Of a DNA stretch of 64,000 nucleotides, positions 5,043 through 63,998 are shown one piece after another. Every line of letters begins with the position of its first letter. Within the stretch, counting starts at the first letter, position 1. The position numbers were made by a program, and so were the translations under genes. The notes under the pieces are model-generated. The model saw only the letters and a list, made by a program, of their open reading frames with translations. It was not told where the DNA came from and ran no database searches. This stretch comes from an uncultured virus (IMG/VR IMGVR_UViG_3300044644_002613) (lineage: Duplodnaviria > Heunggongvirae > Uroviricota > Caudoviricetes): IMG/VR virus record IMGVR_UViG_3300044644_002613; one strand, 5' to 3'.

Positions 5043-6296
5043 TCAAACCTTTTTAATTAACATTTCATCAATTGTAATTGAATTAGAGTCATTGTCGGAA
5101 GCGTTGAACATTATGTCGCTCATGAAATTTTCCACAACCGACCTTAAAGCTCTTGCCCCTGTTCCCTTTTTAAAAGCCACATTTGCAATTTCTTTTATTG
5201 CTCCATCGGTAAATTTCAAATCAATATCATCATAAAAAAATAATTTTTGATATTGTTTTAAAATTGAATTTTTAGGTTCAGTCAAAATTGAAATTAAATG
5301 GCTTTCAGTCATATGATCCAAAGCAACTTGTATTGGCAATCTTCCTACGAATTCAGGAATCATTCCATATTGTATAAAATCTTCATCAGTGACGCTTTTA
5401 AGAATTTCATGATCTGAATTTTCAACACCTGTTGAATTTACAAATCCAATTTTACTTTTTCCAATTCTTCTTCTGATTGTATCTTCAATACCAACAAAAG
5501 TTCCGCCACATATAAAAAGTATGTTTGATGTATCGACTTGTATAAAATGTTGCTCTGGATGCTTTCTTCCTCCTTGGGGCGGAACATTACAAACTGTTCC
5601 CTCTATTATTTTAAGAAGTGATTGCTGAACTCCTTCTCCACTCACATCTCTTGTTATCGACATATTCTTTGATGTTTTGGCTATTTTGTCTATCTCATCG
5701 ATGTAAATAATTCCCATTTGTGCCTTATCAACATCATAATTTGTTTCACGAAGAAGTTTAACTATAAGATTTTCAACATCTTCTCCAACATATCCAGCTT
5801 GGGTAAGGACTGTGGCATCTCCGATAGCAAATGGAACTCCAAGAAATTTGGCCAAGGTTTTTGCGAGTAATGTTTTTCCACAACCTGTCGGCCCTAAAAA
5901 TAAGATGTTGGATTTTTCTATCGTTACATCTTGAAGTTTTTTTGGAATTTTCGATTGATTGGTCTTATCGTTTATGCGTTTATAATGGTTACAAACAGCA
6001 ATTGCCAACAGTTTTTTTGCTCGATCTTGACCTATAACATGTTGATCTAAAAATTCGACAACCTTTTTAGGACTAATCTTTTCAGAAAATTGAATTTCTT
6101 TTTTTAATTTTGATGACTTTTTAAAATCATCGGGGTTTGCAGTGGACAAAGATACATGCATTAAATTTATACAATTCGAACAAATGTAAGCCCTATCACC
6201 TTTTTTTCTTCCATTTCTCGGCCTTGCCAATGATGCACCCTCAATAATAACAGCATCATTCTTTTCGCAAAACTCACAATAAAAAACTTTAGACAT
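5043..6296 (-). CDS. clpX: ATP-dependent Clp protease ATP-binding subunit ClpX
   Basis: C4 zinc finger, [50 protein letters not shown]. Confidence 0.97.
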
Positions 6297-16196: not shown

Positions 16197-16937
16197 TTAT
16201 AAAATAGTAATTCTTTTATATTGTTTAAAATCAGTGTATTCAAATAATTTTTTCTGTATTTGAATTTGCCATAGTTTTTGATTTACACGAAAACTTTTTG
16301 TATAGCTCTTATCGTGTTGCCTGTAATAAAGTAAGGATTCTGGCATATTGTGCAATATCTTATCGTTTTGCAGCATTCTAATCCAAAGTTCATAATCCTC
16401 AACTATACAATTTGGAGATTCGTCATACCCACCAACATCTAATACAGATTTTTTTTTAAACAAAACTGTTGGATGGTTTATAAACCAAAGGCTTGAATTG
16501 GCGATTTTTTTAGTGATTATATGAGGATGATCTGTTTTGTTCTTTAGTATCCATCTTGTATTATTTGCGACCATAAATGTAAGATTACTTCCAACCAAAT
16601 CAACATTTGGATTTCTTTGCAAATAATCAAATTGCTTAAAAAGTCTTTTTGGAAGAGAAAAATCATCTGCATCCATTCTTGCGATCAAATCGAATTGTGA
16701 TTCTTGTATCCCTTTATTGCAACCAAAAGAAATGCCAAAATTATGTTTAAGATGAATTACTTTTATATTGTTGTTTTTGTGAAAATAACCTAATAAACTT
16801 TTTGTGTCTTTGGAATTTGATCCATTATCCACAATAATTACTTCTATTTTTTTAAATGTTTGATTCAAAATAGAATCAACGGCTTCTTTTAGCCAAAAAG
16901 AATTAGTATTACATACTGGTATCACTACAGATATCAT
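16197..16937 (-). CDS. Glycosyltransferase family 2
   Basis: MISVVIPV, IVDNGS, ARMDADD, HPTV, EDYELW; start moved to 16937. Confidence 0.92.
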   Translation of the reverse strand: MISVVIPVCNTNSFWLKEAVDSILNQTFKKIEVIIVDNGSNSKDTKSLLGYFHKNNNIKVIHLKHNFGISFGCNKGIQESQFDLIARMDADDFSLPKRLFKQFDYLQRNPNVDLVGSNLTFMVANNTRWILKNKTDHPHIITKKIANSSLWFINHPTVLFKKKSVLDVGGYDESPNCIVEDYELWIRMLQNDKILHNMPESLLYYRQHDKSYTKSFRVNQKLWQIQIQKKLFEYTDFKQYKRITIL

Positions 16938-17015
16938 ACTTAGCCTTAATTTAAAGAAGCCCACCACAACATTATTGTAATAGGCTTCTTTTTGCATATA
17001 ATCTTAAAATTAAGA

Positions 17016-33715: not shown

Positions 33716-34273
33716 TCAAACTTTAGAAGCCAAACAACAAAATATTTTATTACCTTCAAATTTAGGAGCAACTTCCACTGTTGAATATTCAGACAAACTA
33801 TCAATCAATTTTTTAACAAGATTAAAACCATTGTCAATATGATTTAATTCCCTTCCGCCTTTAAATTGAACGATGCAGTGAATCTTACAACCTTCTTGCA
33901 AAAACCTTTTCGCATGATTAACTTTTGTCATAAGGTCATTTTCTGCAATAGATGGTCTAAATCTCAATTCTTTAAATTGTATTTGAGATTCCCTTTTCTT
34001 TTTGGCACTCTCTTTATCTTTTACTTTTTTTTCATATTTGTACTTAGCATAATCCATAATTTTACAAAGTGGAGGATTAGCATTTGGGATAACTTCTACT
34101 AAATCAAAATTAGATTCTTCTGCAATTCTTCTTGCATTATCTGTTGACATGATGCCAAGCTGCTCTTCGTTTCTTACGACTCTTACAGTGAGTACTCTAA
34201 TTTGATAATTTATTCTAAGTTCGCTAGGTTTGTTTGGATCTTTATCATAATTGCGATAGTTCTGATGATGCAT
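33716..34273 (-). CDS. infC: Translation initiation factor IF-3
   Basis: RINYQIR..VRVV, DLVEV.PNANPPLCKIMDYAKYKYE, KELRFRPSI. Confidence 0.95.
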   Translation of the reverse strand: MHHQNYRNYDKDPNKPSELRINYQIRVLTVRVVRNEEQLGIMSTDNARRIAEESNFDLVEVIPNANPPLCKIMDYAKYKYEKKVKDKESAKKKRESQIQFKELRFRPSIAENDLMTKVNHAKRFLQEGCKIHCIVQFKGGRELNHIDNGFNLVKKLIDSLSEYSTVEVAPKFEGNKIFCCLASKV

Positions 34274-39356: not shown

Positions 39357-39671
39357 CTAAAGGATATCATATCCTTGAGCGATGTTTTTAAGCTTAATGT
39401 ATCCTGAGCAATTGTCGCCCAAAGGAACTTTTTGTGAATGTGGATTTTTACCTTTATTTTTTGAATCTTTTAAAAATTCCGCAACTCGCTTGTCGATAAT
39501 TGCTTTTTTTTCTGCAATTAATTTGAGACAATAATGCTTAGATGGGTCAAGATCATCCTTTTCTAAGTACTTGCAAATGCCACTAGGACTTGAGATAGGA
39601 CCAGAACAAACATTTTTTATTTGCTTTAAACTTAACACATTAATTCCTATGAATATAAATTGGCTTGCCAA
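39357..39671 (-). CDS. Hypothetical Cys-containing protein (probable GTG start near 39638)
   Basis: CKYL...CLKL...GDNCSGY. Confidence 0.6.
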   Translation of the reverse strand: MASQFIFIGINVLSLKQIKNVCSGPISSPSGICKYLEKDDLDPSKHYCLKLIAEKKAIIDKRVAEFLKDSKNKGKNPHSQKVPLGDNCSGYIKLKNIAQGYDIL

Positions 39672-40140
39672 TTTGTGAAATTAAAATTCCATTTTGATGA
39701 TCTATTTCATGTTGATAGATGATAGCATTGAAATTATCAACATCTTCCTCAAATTCACTAATTACAAGCATCGGATCATTGTCAGAAACCAATAACTTTT
39801 TGCCTTTTATCTTGATTTTTTCAAATCTTTCAACTTCGTATCTTTGAAGATTTCCATTAGAATCCTTTAAAGATAGACATCCCTCAATGGACTTGAGCTT
39901 TTCTCCAAAGCCTTCATAACTACAATGAAAAAAATATTCATTTTTTTTAAAATTAATGATGACAAAAAAATCATATGGAATTCCAACTTGAACCGCTGAT
40001 AATCCTACCCCATTATTGTCGAGGCAAATTTGCTCCATATGCATCCCAAGTTTGTATAAATCCAAAAGATTATCAATTGGAGTTACACATGCCAGAGGAA
40101 TATCTTTGGTGTCTACTAATCGCAAAAACTTAAAGTCCAT
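39640..40140 (-). CDS. def: Peptide deformylase
   Basis: GVGLSAVQVG, EGCLS, QHEIDH. Confidence 0.93.
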   Translation of the reverse strand: MDFKFLRLVDTKDIPLACVTPIDNLLDLYKLGMHMEQICLDNNGVGLSAVQVGIPYDFFVIINFKKNEYFFHCSYEGFGEKLKSIEGCLSLKDSNGNLQRYEVERFEKIKIKGKKLLVSDNDPMLVISEFEEDVDNFNAIIYQHEIDHQNGILISQIGKPIYIHRN

Positions 40141-46678: not shown

Positions 46679-47129
46679 GACTATCTACAACCTTTGTGGT
46701 CATTTTACATCTGTTTTTATCAGCATCTAAAAATTCGTCTAAATTTTTAACACTTATAAGCGACCAATGAGGATCATCCAATGGAACATATTCTTTTTTT
46801 GTGTAATAAAATGATTCCATTGTATACCTATAAACTTTATTCTCAACCTCTTCATCGGTCATACCACCAATTAAATCTTCACAAACTTCTTTACAAATTT
46901 TAATCGCATCTTGGTCTGTTGCACATCCTAACTTTCTCATAACTTGAACGGCAGCAAGTGCTTTATCTTTTTGCAAAAGATCTATAATGTTTTTTTTCAT
47001 CATACCATCAATGAAATCTGCCCTTGCCATAAAACGAGCCATAATCTGACCTCGCTTTGGAGCAAATCTCCTCACATCAAAAAAATACTGCTCAAAGTTT
47101 TTTTCGTCAATAATCAATTCTTCAGACAT
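46653..47129 (-). CDS. Hypothetical protein coupled to the end of dnaE-C
   Basis: MSEELII start after GAGG. Confidence 0.65.
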   Translation of the reverse strand: MSEELIIDEKNFEQYFFDVRRFAPKRGQIMARFMARADFIDGMMKKNIIDLLQKDKALAAVQVMRKLGCATDQDAIKICKEVCEDLIGGMTDEEVENKVYRYTMESFYYTKKEYVPLDDPHWSLISVKNLDEFLDADKNRCKMTTKVVDSLDEKKQNE

Positions 47130-49863
47130 TTTTTTCCTCTTTTGCATAATTTGAAAACTGTTCTAAAATTTCTTCTTCAGATAAATATTTATCTTCTTCA
47201 ACTTCAGCAGGTTTCATCAAATATACCCTATAATCAGTTTCCTTCGTTGGAAACTTATAGACCCATCTTTGATTAGGCAATTTTTTATTTTGCTCTAATG
47301 TGTATGTTGGAAACCCTTTATCTGGTGGCTGTAATCTTAATCTAACTAAGTTACCTTGTTCTAATTCTGAACCCCATCTTTTAAGATCGTCTTCCCAAAT
47401 GTTTATTTTATTTTTTTCTCCCAAAGCATCTTCTACCTCCAATTGACAATAAGTTGTTCCTTTTTTACTTTTACACATTTTTTTAACAACTATTTCTACT
47501 TCAACTGGACAAATAACACCAATGTTTTCTTTGAATGCTTCGAATGTGTAACCTTTAAAATCCTTGCTCTTTTCCAAATTATGAGTCCAAGCAAATCCAT
47601 AATACTTCATTTCACAAGCTACAATGCTTTTAAGTTCCTTTTCAAAATTTGGATCAATTTCATAATCATTAGGATTAAATGCTTCGATAGTAGGTAACAA
47701 TAATTTTTTAGACTCTTCAAGTCTTTCGATGCTTTTTAAATTTCTAACCCAAAGCTTTTTTAATTCCTTTAACCTATTGAACACTTTATTAGTCTTTGTG
47801 ATTTTATAATATCTTGTTTTTTGAACTTCAATAAAATCTTCAGTTCCTTCAATTGGAACATAAGTAATTTCCAATTTAGGTTCACCCTGACCCTTTTCAC
47901 ATTCGAATTTTCTTTCTGATTCTACCATTTCATTTACATCGTATTTTTCCCACTCGTCACCATCAAATGGATTAGCTCCATGAAAACTATTCAACAATCT
48001 TGTCTCGTCAGGAAAAAGCTCTTTAAATTCTTCTTCGTATTGCGACATACTAACAGCGAATCTTTTCTTTTTATCTTCTATCTTTCTCGCACATTCTTTG
48101 TAGTGTTCGTAAAATTTCCACAATGTGATTGGATCAGATTCATTAAAACACCTCAATCCAATCAAGCATTTTATAACACTAGCATCTGTGCCAAACTTAA
48201 AAAGAAAATCTCCAAATCCATTATATGGTTGACCAGAAACAATTTTTTCCGCTGGTGCTTCTCCAACACCCTTTATATTTGACAAGCCATAATAAATAAC
48301 ATCATCTATAAGCTCAAAATTTTTCTTAGACTTATTGATGTCAATCTTGTGCATCTCTATGTTGTGTCTTTTTGCTTCCATTTTATAGTCTTTAATCTTT
48401 TCGCTTAATGTTTCACAACTTAAAACGGCAGCATAAAACTCATGAGGATAATGAGCCTTTAAATATAATAGACGAGAAGATACATAAGTGTATGCTACGG
48501 AATGACTTAGGTTGAATCCGTATTCTGCGAATGATTTTATCTGATCGAATAAATTGATTGCTTCTTCTTCAGATATGTTAAGATTTTTTTGACCTTTCTC
48601 TATGAACATAATTTCATATTTTTTAAAAGCCTCCGCTTTCTTTTTTGAAATAGCCTTTCTAACAATTTCACAATCTCTGAATGGTATTTCTCCAACAACA
48701 TTCAAAATTTTCATAATTTGCTCTTGGAAAACCATAACTCCATAAGTTTTTCCAAGAATAGGTTCAACAAGAGGATGCAAACTATATTCTTCGTTGCCCT
48801 TCTTCCTCTCAATATATCTTTCGTGCATTTTCATGTTCAAAGGGCCAGGCCTATAAAGAGCAGTGTATGCAACCAAATCCTCAAATGAATCAACCCCACC
48901 AGACCTAACTAATTTTCTAATGCCTTCCGAATCAAATTGAAAAATACATTTTAAATCGCCTTCATTTGCCATCTCTAGAGCTTTAGAATCATTACGCCAT
49001 TTGATGATATCTGTCCAATCAGATTGGTTTGGCATGGCACAAATACTATCAATTGACTTTCTTCTTTTTACCAATTCACAACATTTACTGATTTGCATCA
49101 AATTAGAAATTACAAGTAAATCAAACTTAACCAATCCTACTGGTTGTAAATCTTGACCATTAAGACCTTCAACCCATGCAGATGCTTGTGGATTGTCTTT
49201 TCTCTTAACCAATGGAACAAGATCGTGTAGTGGAATAGAACTTATAATCAAACCACCAGCATGTTGGCCCATACCTCTATTTCTATTTATAAGTCTTTTG
49301 GCTGCGTTTGATACATCTGGATACTTTTCACAATACTCTTTCAATTTTGGATATTGTGATAGTGCCACATCCCAAGTCAATGGTTTTCCCTCATCATCTT
49401 TTGCTTCAAGCTCTTTTGTAAGTTCAAGTATTTCTCCTCTTGCCTCTCCATGGACTCTAGCCATATCAATCAAAGCACTCTTCATGCCAAATGTTGTGTA
49501 ATTGCCAATATTGCAAACATATTCTTCGCCAAATGTTTCAGAAGCCCACTTGTTTTTCAAATAATCTCTAACTTCAGAAAGATAATCGACATCAATATCT
49601 GGCATATCTCCTTGAACAAACTTAGGATCTTTATTGATATCAAAATCATCAACTATGCCCAAAATGTATGGAACTAAGATATTATTTTCATTCTTGGGGA
49701 ATTTTTTCTTTTCTTTAAATAAATTCAAAAAATATTCTGACTTTCCTTGAATGTCAATTTCTTTAATTTCCCACTCAAGTCTTTTTTTATGCTTTTCACA
49801 TAATTGTCTTCTTTTAAAGATGTGCCATAAAAGCTGTTCGATTTTTTGAACTGTCGTTAACAT
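47122..49863 (-). CDS. dnaE: DNA polymerase III alpha, C-terminal part (catalytic palm, fingers, HhH, OB)
   Basis: MPDIDVD, HAGGLII, GLVKFDLL, IFQF, ALYRPGPL, TYGVMVFQEQIM, YGFNLSHSVAY, GLSNIKGVG. Confidence 0.95.
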   Translation of the reverse strand: MLTTVQKIEQLLWHIFKRRQLCEKHKKRLEWEIKEIDIQGKSEYFLNLFKEKKKFPKNENNILVPYILGIVDDFDINKDPKFVQGDMPDIDVDYLSEVRDYLKNKWASETFGEEYVCNIGNYTTFGMKSALIDMARVHGEARGEILELTKELEAKDDEGKPLTWDVALSQYPKLKEYCEKYPDVSNAAKRLINRNRGMGQHAGGLIISSIPLHDLVPLVKRKDNPQASAWVEGLNGQDLQPVGLVKFDLLVISNLMQISKCCELVKRRKSIDSICAMPNQSDWTDIIKWRNDSKALEMANEGDLKCIFQFDSEGIRKLVRSGGVDSFEDLVAYTALYRPGPLNMKMHERYIERKKGNEEYSLHPLVEPILGKTYGVMVFQEQIMKILNVVGEIPFRDCEIVRKAISKKKAEAFKKYEIMFIEKGQKNLNISEEEAINLFDQIKSFAEYGFNLSHSVAYTYVSSRLLYLKAHYPHEFYAAVLSCETLSEKIKDYKMEAKRHNIEMHKIDINKSKKNFELIDDVIYYGLSNIKGVGEAPAEKIVSGQPYNGFGDFLFKFGTDASVIKCLIGLRCFNESDPITLWKFYEHYKECARKIEDKKKRFAVSMSQYEEEFKELFPDETRLLNSFHGANPFDGDEWEKYDVNEMVESERKFECEKGQGEPKLEITYVPIEGTEDFIEVQKTRYYKITKTNKVFNRLKELKKLWVRNLKSIERLEESKKLLLPTIEAFNPNDYEIDPNFEKELKSIVACEMKYYGFAWTHNLEKSKDFKGYTFEAFKENIGVICPVEVEIVVKKMCKSKKGTTYCQLEVEDALGEKNKINIWEDDLKRWGSELEQGNLVRLRLQPPDKGFPTYTLEQNKKLPNQRWVYKFPTKETDYRVYLMKPAEVEEDKYLSEEEILEQFSNYAKEEKNV

Positions 49864-52746: not shown

Positions 52747-54005
52747 AACAGTTCGTCCAGAAGTGGAAAAACTTCACCGATTCCTCCACGCAAATTCCCT
52801 ACGAATACAAGCCAATATGCAAAGATTTACTTTTGCACGATGAAGAAATCGTTGTCGAAACAATAGACATACTGAAAAGAAACATATCATCTTGGGCAGA
52901 AAAAAATTCCGAAGCTTACGCAAACAAAAAAGACCTTACTTTTTTAGGTAAAAATGATCTCACAGACAAAGACAAGTGGTATGTAAAATCCTTAGAAAAT
53001 GAATCCATGCCAATGAAAAGTAGCGGAAGCACCACTGGTGAGGGATTCGAATACTTGCGATGGGAACCTTTCCTTTATTTCATCGAAGGAGAAAACCACT
53101 ATGATCTGATTCTGGATGAATATGAAATACCACAGAATCCAGACATCATGTACTTCTTTAATTCTTCGTTCGGAAGTGGCTCAAGACACATAAACAATAC
53201 ATCGAAAAGCAAAAACTTTATGGAACATCACGGAACAAAAAGAACCGCAATGGTTCATTATGCAAACACGAAACTACAAAAAGAAAAAGAAGAAGTGTTT
53301 CGGAAATACCTATTCAGATATTTAAATTTAAAAAAAATGGATGTAATTTTTGCCCCAGGCCCACAAATAAAAAAAATATGCTCTTATATAAAAAAGGAAA
53401 ACTATAAAGGTAAACTGTGCAACTTGTTGAGCAATAGCAATGAAAAAATTCTGGATGAAGATGCTAAATTCCTTCTCGAAAAAAATTATGTGTCACATAT
53501 ATGCGACCACATGAGGTGTTGGGATGGAGGAGCTTCCTTCTTCACATGTAGAGATAAGAACTATCACTTAATGGATAACCTTTCTTGGTGTGTCGAAAAT
53601 GAGGAAAGGCTCATATCAACCGATTACTTCTCCTTGGCTTGTCCTTTTGTCAAATTCTGGAATGGCGACAGGTGCAAGATAGGCGATAAATATCAGAGAT
53701 GTTCGTGCGGAAGGTTGTACAGAGATTTTAAATTCTTGGAGAATCGACCATTTGCCATAAAAGGGCATTCGATCAACGAGTACAAAAAGAAGCTCACGGA
53801 AACTGGTCTTACAGAGATAAAACAAGTGAATTGCGGAATCGACTTCATAGAAATCGTGTCGAACAAAGAAATAGATCCTATCAAAAAAAATGAAGTTGCC
53901 GAAATATTTAAGTCTCACAAATTGAAATTCAAAGTTGTTCCAGACCAATTGGCATCGCAAAAAATTCATAACAGAACTCCATCTGAAAAGGTGGAAACAA
54001 AATGA
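52725..54005 (+). CDS. PaaK/CapK-like adenylate-forming (ANL) ligase
   Basis: P-loop KSSGSTTGE, ISTDYF, FWNGD, RCSCGR. Confidence 0.7.
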   Translation: MRNTQEIKQFVQKWKNFTDSSTQIPYEYKPICKDLLLHDEEIVVETIDILKRNISSWAEKNSEAYANKKDLTFLGKNDLTDKDKWYVKSLENESMPMKSSGSTTGEGFEYLRWEPFLYFIEGENHYDLILDEYEIPQNPDIMYFFNSSFGSGSRHINNTSKSKNFMEHHGTKRTAMVHYANTKLQKEKEEVFRKYLFRYLNLKKMDVIFAPGPQIKKICSYIKKENYKGKLCNLLSNSNEKILDEDAKFLLEKNYVSHICDHMRCWDGGASFFTCRDKNYHLMDNLSWCVENEERLISTDYFSLACPFVKFWNGDRCKIGDKYQRCSCGRLYRDFKFLENRPFAIKGHSINEYKKKLTETGLTEIKQVNCGIDFIEIVSNKEIDPIKKNEVAEIFKSHKLKFKVVPDQLASQKIHNRTPSEKVETK

Positions 54006-57000
54006 TAGATCCAAAACTGGTGAAAAAATGGGATATAGTTTTCGCTCTACAAGAAAAGGGATGTGGGTATTTCGCAACATATGAAGCAGTAGTCATTGTG
54101 CCACGACCTTGTACCGGAGGGTCAAGTGCTTATTGGACTCTTGCTTCTCCTTGCCCAGATGGTTGCACATCTTCTCCTCCTCCTCAATTGCCAACAAATC
54201 CTCCATGCGATCCTAATTACCCTGACAATGGAACGGAAAATGACATAATCGGGTGCTGCGAAGGTATAGTTTCAGTCGAATGCTCCGGCACTTGCTGTAA
54301 ATGCGGTGGTGTAGAGTGTTTGACAACGGAGACATGCTGTGACGATGTTTGTGTGAACTTACAAACAGATCGTGACCACTGTAATTCTTGTACCACCCCT
54401 TGCAATCCAGATCAAGACTGCTGTGATGGCGAATGCAAAAACATATACGAAGACAGCAATAATTGTAATGGTTGCGGAAATGTTTGCCCTGAAGCTACAC
54501 CAACTTGCTGCAATGGTGATTGCTGCACGACAGCGAATTGTTGTTTCGTTGATGACATCCTTACTTGTATTGATGTAACAAACAATCATGATCATTGCGG
54601 AAGATGCGACAATCCTTGTGCAGCCGAAGAAACATGCTGTTCTGGTGAATGCGTCAACACACAGACAGATAATGAGCATTGCGGATCATGTCCGAATGCT
54701 TGTCCTGTCGCATTCACATGCTGTTCTGGTGTATGCAAAGAATTATTTGGGGATGATCGTTTAAATTGTGGCGATTGTGGCAAAACTTGCGTTGTAGGAG
54801 AAATATGCAAAAACGGTGTTTGCAAAGACGCTTGTGCTGCGAACGACTGCGAGTTTACTTGGGTTGATCCTCCGGGTTGTTGTAGCCGTTATGTCTGTTC
54901 GACTGAAAATGAGTATGCGTTTTCTTCTTCATACACTTCAATTACAGATTGCTCTGTCGATAGCCCTCCAAATATACCTTGCGATGGAAGCCCAGAATCT
55001 ACAGGTTATTTTTACCTTACATGGAGTCCAGAGCCGTGTTGTACTGGATCTTGTCAATCTTTTTGTCTAGAACCAACTTGCACTTGGTCAGGTCCAGAAA
55101 ACTCTACTTGTGGAGAGGGTTGTGCTTGCCAATCATTTGAAGGTCAACCTTGTGCATGTGGAACACTCAGAGACGATCCATGTATAAGAACAGTAGTACC
55201 TCCCGGACAATGGAATGCAACTGCGACATGTCCACAAGGATGCAACTGCCCCGGGAACGCCCCAATACAAAATGGAACAAATGGTCAAGTAGTCAGTTAC
55301 GAATGCGTCAATTGCCTTGCTCCATGTGAAGCAGGAGAAAAATGCTGTTTCGGCACATGTAAAAACATACTGACAGATCCTCTTAATTGCGGAGATTGTG
55401 GAAACAATTGTGGCGATCAGATTTTGGGAAACAAATGCTGTAATGGGAAATGCGTAAACATACTTACAGGGGATTTAAACTGCGGAGATTGCACAACTGT
55501 ATGTCCATTTCCAGAAGTATGCTGCAATGGCGTATGCAAAAATCGTAACACTGACAATTACAACTGCGGATCTTGCGGTTACGAGTGCCAGACTGGAATT
55601 GGGGAAACCTGCTGCAATGGGATTTGCGTAAACGAAAATACCGACAGAAACAACTGTGGCTCCTGCGGATTTACATGTCCCAACGCAGATCAGTGCATTG
55701 ATGGAAACTGCGTTCCATGCGTTCCTCCATGTCTAGAAGCTGGTACGGCTTGCTGCAACAATCAGTGCATCGACATATTGTCTGACGAGAGCAACTGCGG
55801 TGGTTGCAATATACCTTGTGCTGGCAAGTGCTGCGGTGGCATTTGCGTATTAGATTTGAACACCATGTTTAACTGTGGTGATTGCGGAATAGAGTGTCCG
55901 CAATTGATCAACCAAATCAATCTGTGGCAGTGCTGTAACGGTCAATGCAAGAACCTAAAAACTGATCCAGAAAACTGCGGATTTTGCGGAAATGTATGTC
56001 AAGAACCTCCGGGTGACACATTTACAGTTCCAAAATGTTTCTTGGGAAACTGTGCGGAACCAGAATGCGATTGTCAAGGATATGAAGCTGGAATGCCACC
56101 ACAACCTGGGCCAGACGATGTGGCTTTCGTGGCTTCATGCGTTGGAAACACGGTAAGTTGTGATGGATCTTGTTATTTCAATGCTGTAGGCGGAGGATGG
56201 GTTCTGTATGAAGAGCCGGGCGGAACTGGATTTTCTGGTACCTGCGGAAAAGAACCAGATTACACATATTGCGTTGATGACAAATATGCATGTGTGGATG
56301 ACAAATATGTTTGTGTCGGAGATATATATTATTGTGTAAAAAACATAGAAGGACAAGATATGCCAACTTATTGTATACCTGCTGCATCGTTTAACGCTGA
56401 AACACAAGCACTAATCGGATCTTACATCGGAGCAGAAAACTGTGCCGCTGGTTGTAGCGGTGATGGAAGCGAGTGCGATCCTGCTTGTGGCAATGGATTA
56501 ACCTGTTGTGATACACAATGCGTAGACACGCAAACTGACAGTGCCAATTGCGGTGGTTGTGGTGGCGGTCCTTGTGCTGCTGGCGAGGCTTGCAAAGATG
56601 GAGTTTGCACAGGATGTACGCCTCCATGTGCCGATGGTGAATCGTGCTGCGAAGGTGGAACGACATGCTGCGAAACTTGCTGTGCTGACGCATGTTGTCC
56701 AACTGGTCAATCATGTGTTGATGGAGTGTGTGCCACATGCGAACCACCTTGTACTGCTGGACAAACCTGCTGTGGAGGATCATGTTGTGATGCTGGAATA
56801 ATATGCTGTGACCAAACATGTTGTGCTGAAGGTGAGTTCTGCGAAAACGGAAGTTGTGCAACATGCAACCCAGTGTGCTATCCAGACGAGACATGCTGCG
56901 ATGCAACATGCGTTAGGTGGCAATGTGGAGAATGCCCAAATGCATGTGCTTCTGCTGAAATAGTTTGTTGCGGTTTGCCGGGTCAAGAAGTATGTTGTCC

Positions 57001-58366
57001 TGAAGGTCAAACTTGTGTTGAGAATGCGTGTTACGGATGTACACCTCCTTGTTCCGAAAGTCAGGATTGTTGCGATGAGGTATGCACAGAAGTTGGAACA
57101 GACACAAATTGTTCGGGTTGTGGTGACGCTTGTGGAGAAGGAACAAAATGCTGCGATAAAGTGTGTACTGCTACTGGAACTGACACAAACTGTTCGGATT
57201 GTGGCGATGCTTGTGCCGAAGGTCAGAGTTGTTGTGATGATGTATGCACAGAAATTGGAACCGACACAAATTGTTCGGGTTGTGGTGATGCTTGCACAGA
57301 CGGAAAATGTTGTGAGGGAGTGTGCAAAGAAACACAAACCGACAATGAAAATTGTGGCGATTGCGAAAATGTATGTAATACAGCAGAAGGTGAAAAATGT
57401 GTTGCTGGAGTATGTGTTACTTGTGATCCACCTTGTACTGGACTTGATGTATGTTGTGATTTAACATGCTGCAAAGTTTGTTGCGGTCCAGAAGGTAGTA
57501 AGACATGCTGTGCTGAAGGAAAAATCTGTTTAAATGGTCAGTGTAGCGGTTGTGAACCAGAATGTACAGAACCTGGACAAACTTGTTGCACCAATCCTAA
57601 TCAGCCTAATCCTACAGAGGAGGAACCAAGTCCACCAATAGGACAATGTTGCCCTGCTGGAGTTCTTTGTTGTGCTGGTGGATGCTGCCCTAATGAAAAT
57701 TTTTACTGTTGTGATAACAAAGTATGTTGCTTCAATGATCGTGCTTGTTGCAATGGAGTTTGCTGTGCTGAAGGTAAATTCTGCAATAATGGCGTGTGTG
57801 CTGATTGTAATCCAACATGCTACTCTGATGAAAAATGTTGTCCTGGAACTACTGGTAGCGGGGAATGTATTAGGTGGCAATGTGGCGATTGCCCAAATGC
57901 ATGTACACGATTCCAAACATGCACCAATAATGTTTGTTGCGATGCAGTAACGGAGGGTCCACTATCAGGGCAAACTGGTGTAGGTTGCGGAACTGTTTGT
58001 TGCGACCCCGGTATCACATGTTGCCGAGACATTTGTTGTTTAGACCCTGACGAAGAATGTTGCGATGGCTTTTGCGTAAATACCAATTCTATCGACAATA
58101 ATAATTGCGGAGGTTGTGGCCAGCCATGTGTCGCTCCAGCAACTTGTTGTAATGGTTCGTGTAGAACAGTTTTTGCAGACACTTCTAGTTGCGGAAGTTG
58201 CGGGAATACATGTTCACTTGGAATGCTTTGCTGCCCTGATAACGGTGGCTGCGTTTACCCATCGTATTTAAATTGTGGTAGTTGCGGAAATGAATGTGAA
58301 GTAGGACAATCATGTTGCCCAGATGAACAAGGCGGTCACACATGCTTGGCTCAAGGTTCATGTTAA
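54002..58366 (+). CDS. Giant Cys-rich repeat protein (Stig1-like CCxGxCVxxxTDxxNCGxCGxxC repeats)
   Basis: 1454 aa with many Cys-rich units; ATGA overlap with the ligase gene. Confidence 0.85.
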   Translation: MIDPKLVKKWDIVFALQEKGCGYFATYEAVVIVPRPCTGGSSAYWTLASPCPDGCTSSPPPQLPTNPPCDPNYPDNGTENDIIGCCEGIVSVECSGTCCKCGGVECLTTETCCDDVCVNLQTDRDHCNSCTTPCNPDQDCCDGECKNIYEDSNNCNGCGNVCPEATPTCCNGDCCTTANCCFVDDILTCIDVTNNHDHCGRCDNPCAAEETCCSGECVNTQTDNEHCGSCPNACPVAFTCCSGVCKELFGDDRLNCGDCGKTCVVGEICKNGVCKDACAANDCEFTWVDPPGCCSRYVCSTENEYAFSSSYTSITDCSVDSPPNIPCDGSPESTGYFYLTWSPEPCCTGSCQSFCLEPTCTWSGPENSTCGEGCACQSFEGQPCACGTLRDDPCIRTVVPPGQWNATATCPQGCNCPGNAPIQNGTNGQVVSYECVNCLAPCEAGEKCCFGTCKNILTDPLNCGDCGNNCGDQILGNKCCNGKCVNILTGDLNCGDCTTVCPFPEVCCNGVCKNRNTDNYNCGSCGYECQTGIGETCCNGICVNENTDRNNCGSCGFTCPNADQCIDGNCVPCVPPCLEAGTACCNNQCIDILSDESNCGGCNIPCAGKCCGGICVLDLNTMFNCGDCGIECPQLINQINLWQCCNGQCKNLKTDPENCGFCGNVCQEPPGDTFTVPKCFLGNCAEPECDCQGYEAGMPPQPGPDDVAFVASCVGNTVSCDGSCYFNAVGGGWVLYEEPGGTGFSGTCGKEPDYTYCVDDKYACVDDKYVCVGDIYYCVKNIEGQDMPTYCIPAASFNAETQALIGSYIGAENCAAGCSGDGSECDPACGNGLTCCDTQCVDTQTDSANCGGCGGGPCAAGEACKDGVCTGCTPPCADGESCCEGGTTCCETCCADACCPTGQSCVDGVCATCEPPCTAGQTCCGGSCCDAGIICCDQTCCAEGEFCENGSCATCNPVCYPDETCCDATCVRWQCGECPNACASAEIVCCGLPGQEVCCPEGQTCVENACYGCTPPCSESQDCCDEVCTEVGTDTNCSGCGDACGEGTKCCDKVCTATGTDTNCSDCGDACAEGQSCCDDVCTEIGTDTNCSGCGDACTDGKCCEGVCKETQTDNENCGDCENVCNTAEGEKCVAGVCVTCDPPCTGLDVCCDLTCCKVCCGPEGSKTCCAEGKICLNGQCSGCEPECTEPGQTCCTNPNQPNPTEEEPSPPIGQCCPAGVLCCAGGCCPNENFYCCDNKVCCFNDRACCNGVCCAEGKFCNNGVCADCNPTCYSDEKCCPGTTGSGECIRWQCGDCPNACTRFQTCTNNVCCDAVTEGPLSGQTGVGCGTVCCDPGITCCRDICCLDPDEECCDGFCVNTNSIDNNNCGGCGQPCVAPATCCNGSCRTVFADTSSCGSCGNTCSLGMLCCPDNGGCVYPSYLNCGSCGNECEVGQSCCPDEQGGHTCLAQGSC
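57068..57307 (+). repeat. 81-bp coding tandem repeat x3
   Basis: CCDxVCTxxGTDTNCSxCGDAC units starting at 57068, 57149 and 57230. Confidence 0.85.
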
Positions 58367-59173: not shown

Positions 59174-60536
59174 TTATAAATCAAAACAAATAGATCTACC
59201 GCCTCTAGCCTCAGACATGAATCGACTAAACAAAAGACCTTCAAATACTGGATCAACATCAGTAATTCCAAGACAATAGCAAATCAAAGAACCACAAGCA
59301 CTTCCCCTGCCTGGCCCCACAGCTTGAGTTCCATCACCACCTATATTCTCTTTGCACCACTTTCTTGCCTCATCAGTCATCATTTTTTGAATAAGAAAAT
59401 ATGTACTAAATCCTTTTCGAGTAATAAGACTTAATTCTTCAATTATTCTGTCTTTATATTCTTTGGTCTTAGGCAAGTTTCTCTGCTTGAATCCTTGTAT
59501 GACTAAATCTTTAAGCTTTTCGTCACAATCAGGCAAAATTGGTAATTTTAAACTTCTATCAAGTTCAACTCCTTTTGCCATTCTGCAAATCTCTACTGTA
59601 TTCTTTTTAGCTTCACAAAAAATTTCATATGGAATAACATCACTATAATCTTTAGCCCATTTTTCGTTAAGTTCTTCCTCTGACTTCATCCATAAGTTGG
59701 CATCTTGCAATTCAAAAAAGTCTTTCATGGCATCTTCTTTCATTGCCTTTTGAATTTCTTGAATTGTTCTATTTGTCTGTACCATTAACATAAGTCTTTG
59801 AAAGTGACTATCTTCCTTTCGACAATAATGACAATCATTTGTAAGAATTATTTTTAATTTATACTTTTCATAAGCCTTGATGATAAATGCATCATAAGGC
59901 TTTTGTTTGACAAAATCTAAAAGCATAATTTCAAGAAAATAATTATCTCTACCAAACATCTCAATGTATCTTTCAATCATTTGAAATGCAGCTTCTTCAC
60001 CACCAGAATCAAATGCTCTACCAACTTCGCTGTTATAGCAACAACTAGTAAAAAACAAACCTTCTTTATGTTTCTCAAGTTGTTCGTAATTTACTCTTGG
60101 CTTTCTATAAAATCCTTTTGTCCATCCCCAAGATGTAAGTCTTACTAGGTTTTTATAACCTATTTCACTATGTGCAATCGCAAGAAGATGTGGACTAGCT
60201 CTCAATTCCTTTAATTCTATTTCGTTTAAGTTTTTAGAGAAATTTTGCATGTCTTGCAAAGAATCACTTGATGGCTGTAACCTATTAACATATAGTTCTG
60301 CTGCGAATATAGGAGAAAGTTTGTTTTTACCAAACTTATCACAAATTTTCTCACAAGCTTTTATTTGTCTTGGAACAGCACCCAACATGCCATGATCACT
60401 AATAGTTAAAAAGTTTTGATTGATTTGGGTAGCTCTGAGTGAATATTCCTCACAAGTACCAAACCCATCTAAAACAGAAAAATCGGAATAACTAATGAAG
60501 GTGGAGATGTTCGAAACCGACAATCTCCACCTTCAT
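59174..60536 (-). CDS. dnaE: DNA polymerase III alpha, N-terminal part (PHP plus N-palm), interrupted by a 7-nt insert at 60488-60494
   Basis: AAGGAG RBS + MKVEIVGFEHLHLH | TAGTTAT | SDFSVLDG, ISDHG, AELY, HLL, SCC, TNDCHY, GPGRGSACGSLICYCLGITDVDP, LLFSRF. Confidence 0.9.
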
Positions 60537-60537
60537 T
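60494..60537 (-). promoter_or_regulatory. Perfect 15-bp stem-loop covering the dnaE-N start codon and the HLHLH codons
   Basis: aatgaaggtggagat (60494-60508) / atctccaccttcatt (60523-60537), 14-nt loop. Confidence 0.9.
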
Positions 60538-60576
60538 GGAACTCCTTTCATAAATGTCATTGTTCAATCCTTTTGT

Positions 60577-60828
60577 TTACTTCCAGAGTTTATATTTTTC
60601 ATACACTAGAGCTTCGCAATCCATAATTGCAATTCTTCTAGCGTACTTTCTTGGGGATAGGTATATTTTTTCGTCATCTTCATTAGATTCATCAGGCTTT
60701 ACTTCACGCTCCATTGATATTAAATCATCAAGGATTTCAAGTGCTGTATTTTTTTCTATCTGATTAACTTTGTGAAGATGAAAAGCAAAAAACAATAAAA
60801 ACAAAAAAGGAAAAATTAATTTTTTCAT
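60577..60828 (-). CDS. Small signal-anchored protein
   Basis: Starts MKKLIFPFLFLLFFAF. Confidence 0.6.
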   Translation of the reverse strand: MKKLIFPFLFLLFFAFHLHKVNQIEKNTALEILDDLISMEREVKPDESNEDDEKIYLSPRKYARRIAIMDCEALVYEKYKLWK

Positions 60829-60962
60829 TTTTGTTCTTTTTCAAAAAATGAATCATTGAAAGTGGCCATTTTGTAAATCACTCCCATTGCTACGGCTATT
60901 GAAACCAAAAGTATGGAAAATGAACCTACAAAAAATCCAATCCAGAAATTAAGATCAAACAT
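60825..60962 (-). CDS. Unannotated 45-aa membrane peptide
   Basis: MFDLNFWIGFFVGSFSILLVSIAVAMGVIYKMATFNDSFFEKEQK; AAGGAG RBS; ATGA overlap. Confidence 0.65.
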   Translation of the reverse strand: MFDLNFWIGFFVGSFSILLVSIAVAMGVIYKMATFNDSFFEKEQK

Positions 60963-61265: not shown

Positions 61266-63998
61266 TTACCTTTTTGCTCGTATTCTTACATTTAAAGGAT
61301 CATTGTCAAAACACTCAAAAACGATTTCGCTCCCATCATGACCTTTGGTCGATAGAAACACATCGTTTTGCCAAATAAACCTTAAAGAACAAAGAACATC
61401 ACGAACATAAGGCTCGTATAGTGTTCTTCCCTCATAATTATGCTCCAACATAAGATAACCTTTGCCACGATAATTTGGCTCAGTCAATCTAATATCTGGC
61501 AATCCACCATTAACATGCCTTGCCATAAGGAGTTTTTTTATTTTTTTATATTCATGACTTTCCAAGATTGTATCACCACTTGGATATTTTTTATATTCAA
61601 AATATTCTTGCTCTCTGCAAAAATCTTCAGTAAAAAATTCATGTATCAAAGTTAGATCATCGTAATACTTTCTAACTTCAAATATTTTTTCTTTTCCTAA
61701 TTTTGCATTTGTATCCCAATTTTCTTTTTTGGTTGAATTTGTGCAATCATCCCATTCAGTTCCAAATTGGCCTTTATCCCATCTTTTTCTTATGTCCGAA
61801 AGAAGATTATAGCCTAGCTTATATGGATTAGTGCTATATTTTCCTCCAAGAACACCCATCTTATGTGCAGCATATTCTATGATTCCATCATCATGTGTTT
61901 TCTGGCCCAATGAAACATAACCCTGTTCTGCCATAATGACATGGTCGGTCATACTATTATGATTCATAAATCCACAAGCCGAATATCGATGACTTGTTTC
62001 TACTGTAATGTCATACACTGTATCTTTTCCAATTTTTTCGATAGAAATAATTTCATCTTCAAGTTTTTGATCAATAAACCATTTATGATTGTCAATATAC
62101 TTCTTTAACTTTTGCTGTTTTCTAGATAATCCAAAACCTATTTGCTCATAATACTTTACCGCTTCCTGTCCGGTTATGCGTACATGCCAACAAGAATCTT
62201 TTTGTTTGCGTCTTGTTGATAATATGCAAAAATTCAACAAAACATTTTGTATTTGTCTGGAAAGAACTTCGCTTGCGGTGGAAAGAATAACACCAGCATC
62301 CCCCGCATAACCATCACAATCAAAATACGATCTTACAAAAGAAGCGATAACACTCTTGGGCGATTTAAGAATAATTTCTGGTATTTGCTTAATCCTAGCA
62401 CAGACTCCAGTTTTCATTCCCAAATAAACAAGTAGTTCTTCAAGTTCTTTTGAAGTTACAGAAATTCTATATCGACCATTTTTAGATGTGTCATCCCAAC
62501 GAGATTTACAATCTATATTAAATAATTTCTTTGTAAGACGAATATAATTATCAGCTTGATCTTTATCTCCAGTTGTTAAGCCAAGAGTTCTCTTGCTTTT
62601 AGATATATGACCATCTCCAATCATATATCCAACAAATGAAGCAAATTCTTCATCCATAGAAAAAGGTAAAGATATACATTTTCTTTTATTTCTCATGCAT
62701 GTCATAGACTGATCATCATATTGCTTGAGCAATTTGTCTAAATTGTCATTTTTTTCTTCACCTTTATAATGATATTTTCTATAAACGACTTGAGACATAG
62801 TCGCTGATGCTTTTTTACAGATTTGCTTCAATTCTATCCTTTTATTGGGCAATTTATAATCGATTTTTTGATATTTTTTCGTCCAAATATTTGAAAACGA
62901 TATTTTAACTTTTTCTCCTACATTCATTTTATCAAGACGAACCCAATCATTATCACCCATAACTCTATGATTATTTGAACCCTCAAAAACATATCCTCTT
63001 CTAGTTTCAATCCTATAAACATCACGATTTTCAAAAGTGAACCAATTTGTCACATTTCTAGATTTTTCACCATCATAAACCATAACAGGCAACTTTTTAT
63101 CAACAATTTCACCTAATGTCAAAATGCCCATATTTGTAGATACAAGAGAATCTCTTCGTCCGCAAGCCCACCCCTCGTTTAATACCTTGGTTTGTCTCTG
63201 TGGGAAAAAATAAATTGATTCCTCATAGATCATAGACATAATATCTTGCTGCCATGGCTTCAATGGAGCATTATCACGCAAGAATCCAAAAACATCTTTA
63301 ACTGGTTCAATAAAAAATCCAAGCTCTTCTGCCAAATCTTTATCTTTAACCTTTTCGTTTTCTTTATCTTTAAAATCTTTGGTGTTGATATAAGAATCCA
63401 TATAAAGTCTATCATTGCCAACTTTTAGTCGCCTTGGAAAACGATAATTTTTTTTATCAATAATGTTTTTATCTTTAATTACTTTTTGATGCCAAGCTGA
63501 TGCACCATCAATTAAATTGTCGATGCGAAGCAAATAATCAAGAAATTCAGTAACCTTTTCTTTACCCCATCTAGCCATATATTTTCTTATACGACTCGCA
63601 TGATTCGCCATGTTATTCAACATATTTGTGTCAGTGGCAGAAAAATGAATATTATTTTTAAAGAAATCATTATGACCAGTAGCGTGAGCGATAACTGTCA
63701 AATGATCCAATAGAGTATTGCTATCTAAGCAATAGATGTAGCAAGGTGATGTATTATGGGTAATCAATCCATATGCAATAAAATCATGAGAATCATGATC
63801 CAATGCAATATCAACAGTTTCGATCTCATCTCCATCAACAACATGCTCAACAACAAATAAAGGATTTGAAATAATATCTTTAATTTCATTTGGAACACTT
63901 AATCCTTGATTTTCTGCTCTTTGTACAAATGAAGAAAAAGAATTAATCCCAACTTTTTGTTTCTCGAACATTTTAATTGAATAACCAAGACTATGGTT
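61266..63998 (-). CDS. spoVR: SpoVR/YcgB family protein with two inteins (5' end beyond the window)
   Basis: PCYIYCLDSNT, VIAHATGHNDFFKNN, LKPWQQDI, YFFPQRQTKVLNEGWA|S, NPYKLG, KIFEVRK.Y.D. Confidence 0.9.
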   Translation of the reverse strand, partial: NHSLGYSIKMFEKQKVGINSFSSFVQRAENQGLSVPNEIKDIISNPLFVVEHVVDGDEIETVDIALDHDSHDFIAYGLITHNTSPCYIYCLDSNTLLDHLTVIAHATGHNDFFKNNIHFSATDTNMLNNMANHASRIRKYMARWGKEKVTEFLDYLLRIDNLIDGASAWHQKVIKDKNIIDKKNYRFPRRLKVGNDRLYMDSYINTKDFKDKENEKVKDKDLAEELGFFIEPVKDVFGFLRDNAPLKPWQQDIMSMIYEESIYFFPQRQTKVLNEGWACGRRDSLVSTNMGILTLGEIVDKKLPVMVYDGEKSRNVTNWFTFENRDVYRIETRRGYVFEGSNNHRVMGDNDWVRLDKMNVGEKVKISFSNIWTKKYQKIDYKLPNKRIELKQICKKASATMSQVVYRKYHYKGEEKNDNLDKLLKQYDDQSMTCMRNKRKCISLPFSMDEEFASFVGYMIGDGHISKSKRTLGLTTGDKDQADNYIRLTKKLFNIDCKSRWDDTSKNGRYRISVTSKELEELLVYLGMKTGVCARIKQIPEIILKSPKSVIASFVRSYFDCDGYAGDAGVILSTASEVLSRQIQNVLLNFCILSTRRKQKDSCWHVRITGQEAVKYYEQIGFGLSRKQQKLKKYIDNHKWFIDQKLEDEIISIEKIGKDTVYDITVETSHRYSACGFMNHNSMTDHVIMAEQGYVSLGQKTHDDGIIEYAAHKMGVLGGKYSTNPYKLGYNLLSDIRKRWDKGQFGTEWDDCTNSTKKENWDTNAKLGKEKIFEVRKYYDDLTLIHEFFTEDFCREQEYFEYKKYPSGDTILESHEYKKIKKLLMARHVNGGLPDIRLTEPNYRGKGYLMLEHNYEGRTLYEPYVRDVLCSLRFIWQNDVFLSTKGHDGSEIVFECFDNDPLNVRIRAKR
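61956..63164 (-). mobile_element. 403-aa intein with a LAGLIDADG homing endonuclease in SpoVR
   Basis: EGWA|CGRRDSLV...NNHRV...VGYMIGDGH...VRSYFDCDG...VYDITV..FMNHN|SM. Confidence 0.93.

What the first reader, a model, noticed from the sequence alone, without database searches (positions are those of the whole stretch)
60485..60547. Candidate translational-bypass element: 7-nt stop-containing insert at the foot of a perfect hairpin in dnaE-N
Seen (minus strand): AAGGAG-ttcca-ATG AAG GTG GAG ATT GTC GGT TTC GAA CAT CTC CAC CTT CAT [TAG T TAT] TCC GAT TTT TCT GTT TTA GAT GGG. Removing exactly 7 nt gives HLHLH-SDFSVLDG, the canonical PHP motif I. The other PHP metal ligands (D, H, E, H, C, D, H) all appear conserved downstream, so the HxH is probably needed. 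The codons for MKVEI are the exact reverse complement of those for HLHLH, forming a 15-bp stem that buries the AUG and ends at the stop, which looks selected rather than accidental. The layout parallels T4 gene 60 bypassing: take-off codon CAU, immediate UAG, and near-matched landing codon UAU (one G-U pair with tRNA-His). Inference: refolding of the hairpin could push the stalled ribosome forward, gating production of the proofreading half of the replicase. Alternatives are a +1 frameshift (HLHLH-SY-SDFS), RNA-level excision of the 7 nt, or re-initiation at TTG 60523 giving an exonuclease-dead form.
Basis: partly seen in the sequence, partly recalled or inferred. Interest (0 to 1): 0.92.

Follow-up and report, generated by a model that had tools for sequence, protein, structure and literature searches.

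The report
Ribosome-hop gap in phage polymerase gene
This large uncultured phage's DNA polymerase gene is really broken near its start by seven extra bases that begin with a stop codon, and dozens of relatives indicate that ribosomes hop over such gaps with the help of an RNA hairpin left by a selfish nuclease, a very rare way of reading a gene that has not yet been shown at the bench here.

Summary
Real, and not an assembly slip. A 7-nt, stop-first gap sits in PHP motif I of the N-half of a split phage DnaE, at the foot of a 15-bp hairpin (z -6.1). Among 128 distinct homologous 5' ends, 38 carry 5-15-nt stop-first gaps and 8 carry 39-47-nt hairpin gaps, at four codon positions. The hairpin is found in 42 of 46 gapped genes but 2 of 76 intact ones, and it covaries. 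The gap's last triplet matches the take-off codon at two or more of three bases in 38 of 39 distinct gaps, switching with His, Asp or Leu. Downstream coding is under purifying selection. An HNH-type nuclease gene lies just upstream in 16 of 42 gapped versus 3 of 69 intact loci; the window keeps only its scar. Best reading (0.8): programmed translational bypassing carried by a homing-nuclease cassette, a miniature of T4 gene 60/MobA. The likely start is an upstream ATG (60560), not the buried one; regulation is unsupported. No RNA or protein data. This scan noted the same kind of gap before on other phage DNA; eight searches found no paper on it.

The parts
60557..60582 (-). Scar of the 3' end of the lost HNH-type nuclease gene; its TGA overlaps the leader ATG (ATGA)
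   Evidence: Similarity to L005, which has the whole nuclease gene, begins 87 nt before the end of the take-off codon (sequences); L010's nuclease stops at this ATGA
60568..60572 (-). AAGGA, SD-like motif 7 nt before ATG 60560
   Evidence: Read from the sequence; function inferred
60492..60560 (-). Upstream mini-ORF, 22 codons plus TAG: cassette-derived leader followed by the first PHP strand ending in HLHLH
   Evidence: such a leader in 34 of 34 genes gapped at these sites vs 10 of 76 intact
60542..60547 (-). Internal AAGGAG at the 5' foot of the hairpin; can also pair with the landing/resume codons in an extended stem
   Evidence: role (anti-SD pairing or stem extension) not determined
60523..60537 (-). 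Hairpin 5' arm (contains the buried ATG at 60536)
60509..60522 (-). Hairpin loop, 14 nt, with a short inner helix
   Evidence: 14-nt loop in most homologs gapped after HLHLH
60494..60508 (-). Hairpin 3' arm (the HLHLH codons plus the first base of the stop)
60495..60497 (-). Proposed take-off codon CAT (His, equivalent to Mtb DnaE1 H16)
60488..60494 (-). 7-nt coding gap: TAG (60494-60492), T, proposed landing codon TAT (60490-60488)
59174..60487 (-). Resumed frame of dnaE-N: rest of PHP domain and first part of the polymerase domain
   Evidence: dN/dS 0.07 against L005
47122..49863 (-). dnaE-C, the separate 913-aa C-terminal half, an uninterrupted ORF
   Evidence: ORF and translation; named from its PDID motif, no family scan run on it
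60577..60962 (-). Two small ORFs (83 and 45 aa) standing where L005 has the nuclease gene
   Evidence: no Pfam match for the 83-aa protein

Best explanation
Programmed translational bypassing installed by a homing-endonuclease cassette. Shown: the gap, hairpin, longer leader and matched end triplet travel together and are scattered over the DnaE tree; an HNH-type gene often sits directly upstream; the gene stays under purifying selection. Inferred, step by step: (1) an HNH nuclease gene inserts just 5' of dnaE-N and replaces the gene's first ~25 codons with its own version; (2) a few extra bases in the conserved motif-I DNA protect the new allele from the nuclease; (3) ribosomes start at the leader ATG (coupled to the nuclease stop), melt the hairpin and stall with peptidyl-tRNA-His on CAU and UAG in the A site; (4) the freed 5' arm re-zips with the 3' arm as it leaves the exit channel, pulling the mRNA through and blocking back-sliding; (5) the tRNA re-pairs 7 nt on at UAU (one extra G-U pair) and decoding resumes at UCC, restoring H-L-H-S-D-F-S without added residues. 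In this phage the nuclease gene has since been lost and the gap kept.
For: Gap census: 38 micro gaps (5-8 and 15 nt) and 8 of 39-47 nt among 128 distinct 5' ends, each restoring motif I exactly. All 38 micro gaps begin with an in-frame stop, using all three stops (TAG 27, TGA 7, TAA 4), although TAG is the rarest stop in this genome (13 of 131 long ORFs). End triplet vs take-off codon: at least 2 of 3 in 38 of 39 distinct gaps, middle base in 36 of 39; offsets -3,-2,-1,+1,+2,+3 give 3,1,1,5,16,6 of 38; landing triplets switch with the residue (His to NAY, Leu to CTN/ATT, Asp to GAA/AAC). Among triplets that would restore the frame, the last is best or tied in 30 of 30, and any other reaches 2 of 3 in only 2 of 30. 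Hairpin z below -2.5 in 35 of 38 micro, 7 of 8 mid, 0 of 6 intron-like and 2 of 76 intact; the nearest intact relative L011 has none (z 0.61). 5 of 12 stem pairs show two-sided changes, 96% of cells pair, 0 of 500 shuffles reach the covariation score. dN/dS 0.01-0.07 in 7 of 11 gapped pairs; dS saturated with pN 0.06-0.13 in the other 4. Nuclease gene or remnant upstream in 16 of 42 gapped vs 3 of 69 intact loci, Fisher p 8e-6. L004 and L003 are 94.5% identical upstream and differ by a ~850-nt nuclease-bearing block plus the new 5' end. Micro state needs 22 changes on the DnaE-N tree, at least 20 forced by well-supported branches. Precedents: MobA/gene 60, exiting-mRNA driver model, Hau3 ter 7-10-nt gaps with 5' stem-loop and SD.
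Against: No RNA, ribosome-profiling or protein evidence. Most landing codons are near-cognate (all three bases in only 7 of 39), one is poor (L039, 1 of 3), whereas gene 60 relatives keep cognate pairs. In 8 of the 30 His-site 5' ends (read) a perfect CAC lies 2 nt past the productive landing site in a dead frame, so simple best-match scanning cannot be the whole rule. A 3-base target-site duplication could seed matched ends without selection. Loci are related and near-duplicates remain, so p-values and covariation counts overstate independence. 26 of 42 gapped loci have no detected nuclease, 3 intact loci have one, and the cut site is untested; Pfam gave no HNH hit for the 12 upstream proteins, the label rests on the motif and on annotated relatives at 28-49% identity over part of the length. 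Six intact homologs carry one extra residue after HxH, so added residues are not proven lethal. The contig is 34% complete, so a second dnaE cannot be excluded.
Confidence: 0.8

Rival explanations
1. Programmed +1 frameshift at the stop: the ribosome slips one base at CAU-UAG and adds Ser-Tyr before SDFS; relatives would use -1 shifts or readthrough.
For: A 7-nt gap is a +1 frame change; slow stops favour +1 slips (general knowledge); six intact homologs tolerate one extra residue at this spot.
Against: The +1 triplet (ATT) matches the His codon at 1 of 3 bases, the landing triplet at 2 of 3. Gaps of 5, 6, 7, 8, 15 and 39-47 nt would need three different mechanisms. It does not explain why the last triplet tracks the take-off codon in 38 of 39 gaps.
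Confidence: 0.06
2. The extra bases are removed from the RNA (micro-intron, or cut-and-ligate by a phage or host enzyme guided by the hairpin).
For: Six homologs have 223-240-nt group I-like inserts in the same 24-nt stretch, one (L205) at the same site as the 39-47-nt gaps; the window's gap can be drawn in four registers.
Against: 0 of 46 short gaps fit the group I U|...G boundary rule in any register (3 of 6 long ones do). Gap ends share no sequence but do share codon logic: in-frame stop first, tRNA-matched triplet last. 5-8 nt is too short for any self-splicing intron (general knowledge).
Confidence: 0.06
3. Two chains: the 22-residue peptide ends at the stop and the large fragment is re-initiated (for example at TTG 60523), working alone as an exonuclease-dead form or being complemented in trans by the peptide.
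For: A TTG lies in the resumed frame in the window; this polymerase is already split into two genes.
Against: Only 10 of 30 distinct micro gaps have any ATG/GTG/TTG in the resumed frame upstream; in-frame gaps (6, 15 nt) allow none. The downstream metal ligands stay invariant. It explains neither matched end triplets nor exact restoration of the motif.
Confidence: 0.05
4. A dead gene or an assembly error.
For: Raw reads were not examined; the contig is partial and the phage might have another replicase.
Against: Same gap in independent assemblies at dS 0.09 and 1.34; dN/dS 0.01-0.07 after the gap; compensatory stem changes; only one dnaE-N in the held contig.
Confidence: 0.02

Closest known systems
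Phage T4 gene 60 bypass within the MobA homing-endonuclease element (10.1101/2022.08.31.505936: abstract, Results part 1 of 2, section 12, Discussion part 2 read; 10.1101/2024.12.09.627546: abstract, Introduction part 1 of 2, section 18 read; PMC7026636: passages)
   Same: HNH nuclease gene directly upstream; cassette-encoded new N-terminal extension overlapping the nuclease stop; gap in a conserved metal-binding motif of an essential DNA enzyme; UAG after the take-off codon; patchy distribution with intact sisters; nuclease lost while gap is kept.
   Different: Target is DnaE, not topoisomerase; gap 7 nt, not ~50; take-off codon on the 3' arm of a strongly conserved upstream stem (gene 60's 5' stem-loop is not conserved); no room for an A-site stem-loop or in-gap mini-SD; landing mostly near-cognate; four take-off positions in the family; leader of 22 codons instead of 46 and no KKYK-like signal seen.
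Streptomyces phage Hau3 / prophage terminase bypass (PMC10732093: passages and section 3.4 read)
   Same: Short (7-10 nt) gaps, a 5' stem-loop with flanking internal SD proposed as signals; a UAA-substituted cassette bypassed in E. coli by mass spectrometry.
   Different: Triggered by a hungry UUA codon and proposed as regulatory; found in 3 of 100 ter genes; no nuclease link described in what I read. Here a true stop is the trigger and 46 of 128 5' ends are gapped.
Synthetic 'stop hops' in E. coli (as described in PMC5009743, passages read)
   Same: [quoted passage not shown]
   Different: That 2016 review says no natural occurrences of in-frame stop hopping were known; these are natural and carry a hairpin.
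byps of Magnusiomyces mitochondria (passages in PMC5009743; primary papers not read)
   Same: Short inserts bypassed, imperfect take-off/landing pairs with two-of-three pairing; the 39-47-nt hairpin gaps without a stop resemble them.
   Different: Mitochondrial ribosomes, unused sense codon as trigger, many genes; here bacterial ribosomes and one hotspot.
Split DNA polymerase III alpha of jumbo phages (PMC7824862, passages read)
   Same: Catalytic subunit in two distant genes.
   Different: That version is minimal and lacks PHP; no mention of bypass in the paper (0 hits).

Membership tests
Programmed translational bypassing (general) | One protein must be made from two discontinuous frames | tested here: met
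   Motif I is split across frames; downstream under purifying selection; ligands conserved. Need is inferred; the protein was not observed.
Programmed translational bypassing (general) | Poorly decoded A-site codon (stop or hungry) right after take-off | tested here: met
   TAG in the window; stop first in 38 of 38 micro gaps, 2 of 8 mid gaps
Programmed translational bypassing (general) | Landing triplet able to re-pair with the take-off tRNA, 5' of the resume codon | tested here: met
   CAT/TAT 2 of 3; 38 of 39 distinct gaps at 2 or more of 3, but only 7 of 39 fully matched
Programmed translational bypassing (general) | Gap retained in mRNA and junction peptide detected | not testable with these tools
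   Needs RNA and proteomic data
T4 gene 60 / MobA element | Insertion in the topoisomerase large-subunit gene with CTE and NTE tails | tested here: not met
   Target is dnaE-N; only an N-terminal extension is present
T4 gene 60 / MobA element | ~50-nt gap with A-site/take-off stem-loop and mini-SD before landing | tested here: not met
   Gap is 7 nt. Relatives L143 and the second gap of L140 do show a take-off stem-loop with the stop on its 5' arm.
T4 gene 60 / MobA element | Adjacent HNH homing endonuclease gene | tested here: inconclusive
   Absent from the window and held contig, scar present; present in 16 of 42 gapped relatives; homology to MobA itself not tested
T4 gene 60 / MobA element | Gap protects DNA from the nuclease | not testable with these tools
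   Needs a cleavage assay
T4 gene 60 / MobA element | Nascent-peptide signal | not tested
   Leaders vary in length and sequence apart from a frequent K-G; no formal test
Hau3-type ter bypass | UUA hungry codon at take-off in a Streptomyces phage terminase gene | tested here: not met
   Stop codon in dnaE of a ~31% GC phage
Hau3-type ter bypass | 5' stem-loop with flanking internal SD | tested here: met
   Hairpin with AAGGAG at its 5' foot; function not shown
Group I intron | Catalytic core of ~200 nt or more; U before the 5' site, G at the 3' end | tested here: not met
   7 nt; boundary rule fails in all registers for 46 of 46 short gaps

The most novel reading that the evidence does not exclude
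A minimal, portable bypass device: one upstream hairpin, built by making the new leader complementary to the gene's own codons, plus a stop codon, is enough to move a bacterial ribosome 5-15 nt with positional rather than codon-match precision, efficiently enough for an essential replicase. Homing nucleases have re-tuned it at four neighbouring codons, giving natural in-frame stop hops (reported as unknown in nature in 2016) and one gene (L140) needing two hops seven codons apart. It would be a direct natural test of the idea that re-pairing of exiting mRNA drives ribosomes forward.
Probability: 0.5. Interest if true: 0.9.

Novelty: new variant of a known kind. Interest (0 to 1): 0.76.

Why it matters
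The papers read name only three natural settings for programmed bypassing (T4 gene 60 and relatives, yeast mitochondrial byps, Streptomyces phage terminase). This adds a large, varied family in an essential replicase gene, with a far simpler layout and built-in natural variants (gap 5-48 nt, three stops, matched and unmatched landings, intact sisters) that separate the roles of hairpin, stop, landing codon and SD. It also shows a third way, beside introns and inteins, for a homing nuclease to occupy a conserved active-site motif, and it means automatic annotation truncates these polymerases and would call them exonuclease-dead.

Tried and rejected
Other cassettes in this genome: a loose scan (hairpin ending at a stop, long frame within 60 nt) returned mostly terminator-like hairpins and repeats; only dnaE-N looked convincing by eye. 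Other target genes of the nuclease family: 80 nuclease loci fetched; in the part of the output shown (middle cut), gaps were seen only in dnaE. Cultured examples: Streptomyces phages whose match began at residue 13 have annotated starts 18 nt before the match and looked ordinary by annotation; not pursued. SD-to-landing 'ruler' with the hairpin looped out: 7 nt in the window, but not constant across homologs on inspection; rejected as a general rule. Pairing of the gap with the leader (extended stem): native stronger than cross-matched in 17 of 24, mean -4.3 vs -2.6 kcal/mol, Wilcoxon p 0.01; modest, kept as a hint only. TAG reassignment: would not restore the frame, TAG ends 13 of 131 long ORFs, and only one tRNA (Arg) was found. 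DNA inversion between the arms would flip only the loop; no homopolymer run for transcriptional slippage (read). Promoter scan uninformative. Corndog tape-measure case (PMC4351075, passages): HNH upstream and possible bypass, but unresolved and a different gene. No structure prediction was run.

Full report
1. Observation. The region folds into a hairpin of -33.5 kcal/mol, z -6.10, with 0 of 200 shuffles as stable. The frame after the gap is open for 438 codons and carries PHP and DNA_pol3_alpha domains; the C-terminal half of DnaE is a separate ORF at 47122-49863. The window lies in a 165-kb linear virus contig estimated 34% complete, with one dnaE-N. Alignment to Mtb DnaE1 puts the take-off His at H16, and the seven downstream ligands (D23, H48, E73, H107, C158, D226, H228 equivalents) are invariant in 20 of 20 aligned proteins; nine residues bind three zinc ions in that enzyme (PMC5636811, passages; the assignment of H14/H16 as ligands is recalled). 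So the residues before the stop belong to the active site.

2. Homologs. Four scans fetched 216 loci (the last three capped at the best 80, 80 and 6). With the window, 217 records; 10 lacked the 5' end and were dropped; the rest collapsed to 128 distinct 120-nt 5' regions, near-duplicates included. A profile search for the cut that restores motif I, with 12 hand reassignments (L041, L042, L051, L173, L140 to gapped; L124, L175, L177, L178, L193, L194, L181 to intact), gives 76 intact, 38 micro gaps (one of 5 nt, 7 of 6, 12 of 7, 17 of 8, one of 15), 8 gaps of 39-47 nt with their own hairpin, and 6 group I-like inserts of 223-240 nt (intron label from size and boundaries, not from an Rfam search). 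Take-off falls at four positions: after HLHL, after HLHLH (the window), after H[ST]D, and after S[VL]L. L140 has two gaps, 8 and 48 nt, seven codons apart.

3. Signs of a translation-level event. All 38 micro gaps start with an in-frame stop (TAG 27, TGA 7, TAA 4). In 39 distinct take-off/gap pairs the last triplet matches the take-off codon at two or more bases in 38, at the middle base in 36, at all three in 7; shifted triplets give 1-6 of 38, except offset +2 (16 of 38). The landing triplets follow the amino acid: middle base matches 9 of 9 for Leu against Leu-site gaps and 0 of 9 for His or Asp against them. Among frame-restoring triplets the last is best or tied in 30 of 30. None of 46 short gaps fits the group I boundary rule. 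Against: in 8 of 30 His-site 5' ends a perfect CAC lies two bases beyond the productive site in a dead frame (read), and L039 lands on a 1-of-3 match, so position must matter as well as pairing.

4. The hairpin is part of the device. z below -2.5 in 35 of 38 micro, 7 of 8 mid, 0 of 6 long and 2 of 76 intact 5' ends, the intact ones being given the best of three windows (base-composition shuffles). The stem moves with the take-off site. In 26 His-site sequences 5 of 12 pairs change on both sides, 96% of cells pair, 0 of 500 shuffles reach the covariation score, and slid registers pair at 37-54% (relatedness inflates this). The codons of the 3' arm vary mostly synonymously. Gapped genes have a longer N-terminus: an in-frame ATG 9-18 codons before the G of G[FY]E in 34 of 34 genes gapped at the first two sites versus 10 of 76 intact. 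In the window this is ATG 60560, outside the stem, 7 nt after AAGGA.

5. The gene is alive. Downstream of the gap dN/dS is 0.01-0.07 in 7 of 11 gapped pairs, with dS saturated in the other 4. The window against L005 has dS 1.34 and the same 7-nt layout.

6. It is a mobile cassette. On a tree of 125 downstream proteins (L048, L052, L210 left out; quick method, SH-aLRT only; midpoint root distorted by intein-bearing rows) the micro state needs 22 changes, at least 20 forced by well-supported branches, with many gapped/intact sister pairs. A gene with Cys-rich repeats and an H-x-D-H...N...N motif lies directly upstream in many gapped loci. Pfam found no HNH family in 12 of 12 such proteins, only CapR-like repeats in three; partial relatives in cultured phages are annotated HNH or homing endonuclease. 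A profile finds it or a remnant in 16 of 42 gapped, 3 of 69 intact and 2 of 6 intron-bearing loci with at least 700 nt upstream. L004 differs from intact L003 by this block and the new 5' end. The window has no such gene but its similarity to L005 starts 87 nt before the take-off codon's end, covering the last codons of the nuclease and the ATGA overlap; two small ORFs fill the place of the rest.

7. Mechanism. Shown: items 1-6. Inferred: start at the leader ATG, stall at UAG, re-zipping of the stem at the mRNA exit as forward driver, re-pairing at UAU, resumption at UCC; gap as protection from the nuclease. The driver idea is that of 10.1101/2024.12.09.627546; the immunity and hit-and-run pattern is that of MobA. 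How release factor is out-competed without an A-site stem-loop is unexplained. Nothing supports a regulatory gate.

8. Relation to known systems. It works like T4 gene 60/MobA but is not a member (different target, gap, structure). In signals it is nearest the Hau3 terminase gaps, which differ in trigger. Six relatives have the exact 'stop hop' layout that a 2016 review knew only from synthetic constructs. Searches and term look-ups found no paper on bypass gaps in phage dnaE; the library lacks most subscription journals. Earlier unchecked notes of this scan describe the same kind of gap in other phages; I had the homolog pattern before seeing them, but the first prompted the look for an upstream nuclease. 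Their claim of cultured Gordonia and mycobacterial phage examples was not confirmed here.

9. Verdict. Real feature; new variant of a known, very rare kind; bypass 0.8; interest 0.76.

Noticed in passing
L140:1862-1940: Two gaps in one gene, 8 nt after HLHLH and 48 nt after the following SLL; the second has the take-off codon and stop on the 5' arm of its own stem-loop, then GAG and an A-rich run before the landing triplet, much like T4 gene 60. L143 has the same second-type gap alone.
   Followed up: partly
L211, L212, L214, L041, L042, L051 (dnaE-N 5' ends): Leu codon, stop, Leu codon: natural in-frame stop-hop layouts, at two different positions of the motif.
   Followed up: partly
L013, L022, L023, L117, L120, L203 (dnaE-N 5' ends): 39-42-nt hairpin gaps after the Asp codon that do not begin with a stop, flanked by a second hairpin upstream.
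   Followed up: partly
L036, L050, L192, L201, L205, L206: 223-240-nt group I-like inserts in the same 24-nt motif; L205 at the same site as the 39-47-nt gaps. The motif is an insertion hotspot.
   Followed up: partly
L144, L098: Intact genes that keep the hairpin (z -5.2, -3.2) and sit beside gapped sisters: possible revertants that lost the gap.
   Followed up: no
window 47122-49863 and 59174-60487: DnaE in two intein-free genes 9 kb apart; noted earlier by this scan in relatives.
   Followed up: no
window 61266-63998 (-): SpoVR-like gene carrying an intein with a LAGLIDADG domain.
   Followed up: no
window 54002-58366 (+): 1454-aa protein that is extremely Cys-rich and repetitive, at 45% GC in a 31% GC genome, between the two dnaE halves.
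   Followed up: no
window 33716-34273, 39640-40140, 5043-6296: Translation and proteolysis genes by appearance of their translations (IF3-like, peptide deformylase-like, ClpX-like; labels recalled, no family scan); one tRNA-Arg elsewhere in the contig.
   Followed up: no
window 16955-16990 (-): An 18-bp hairpin covering the start of the 266-aa ORF at 16197-16997.
   Followed up: no
L222, L232: The same nuclease family sits directly upstream of a more distant, uninterrupted dnaE type.
   Followed up: no
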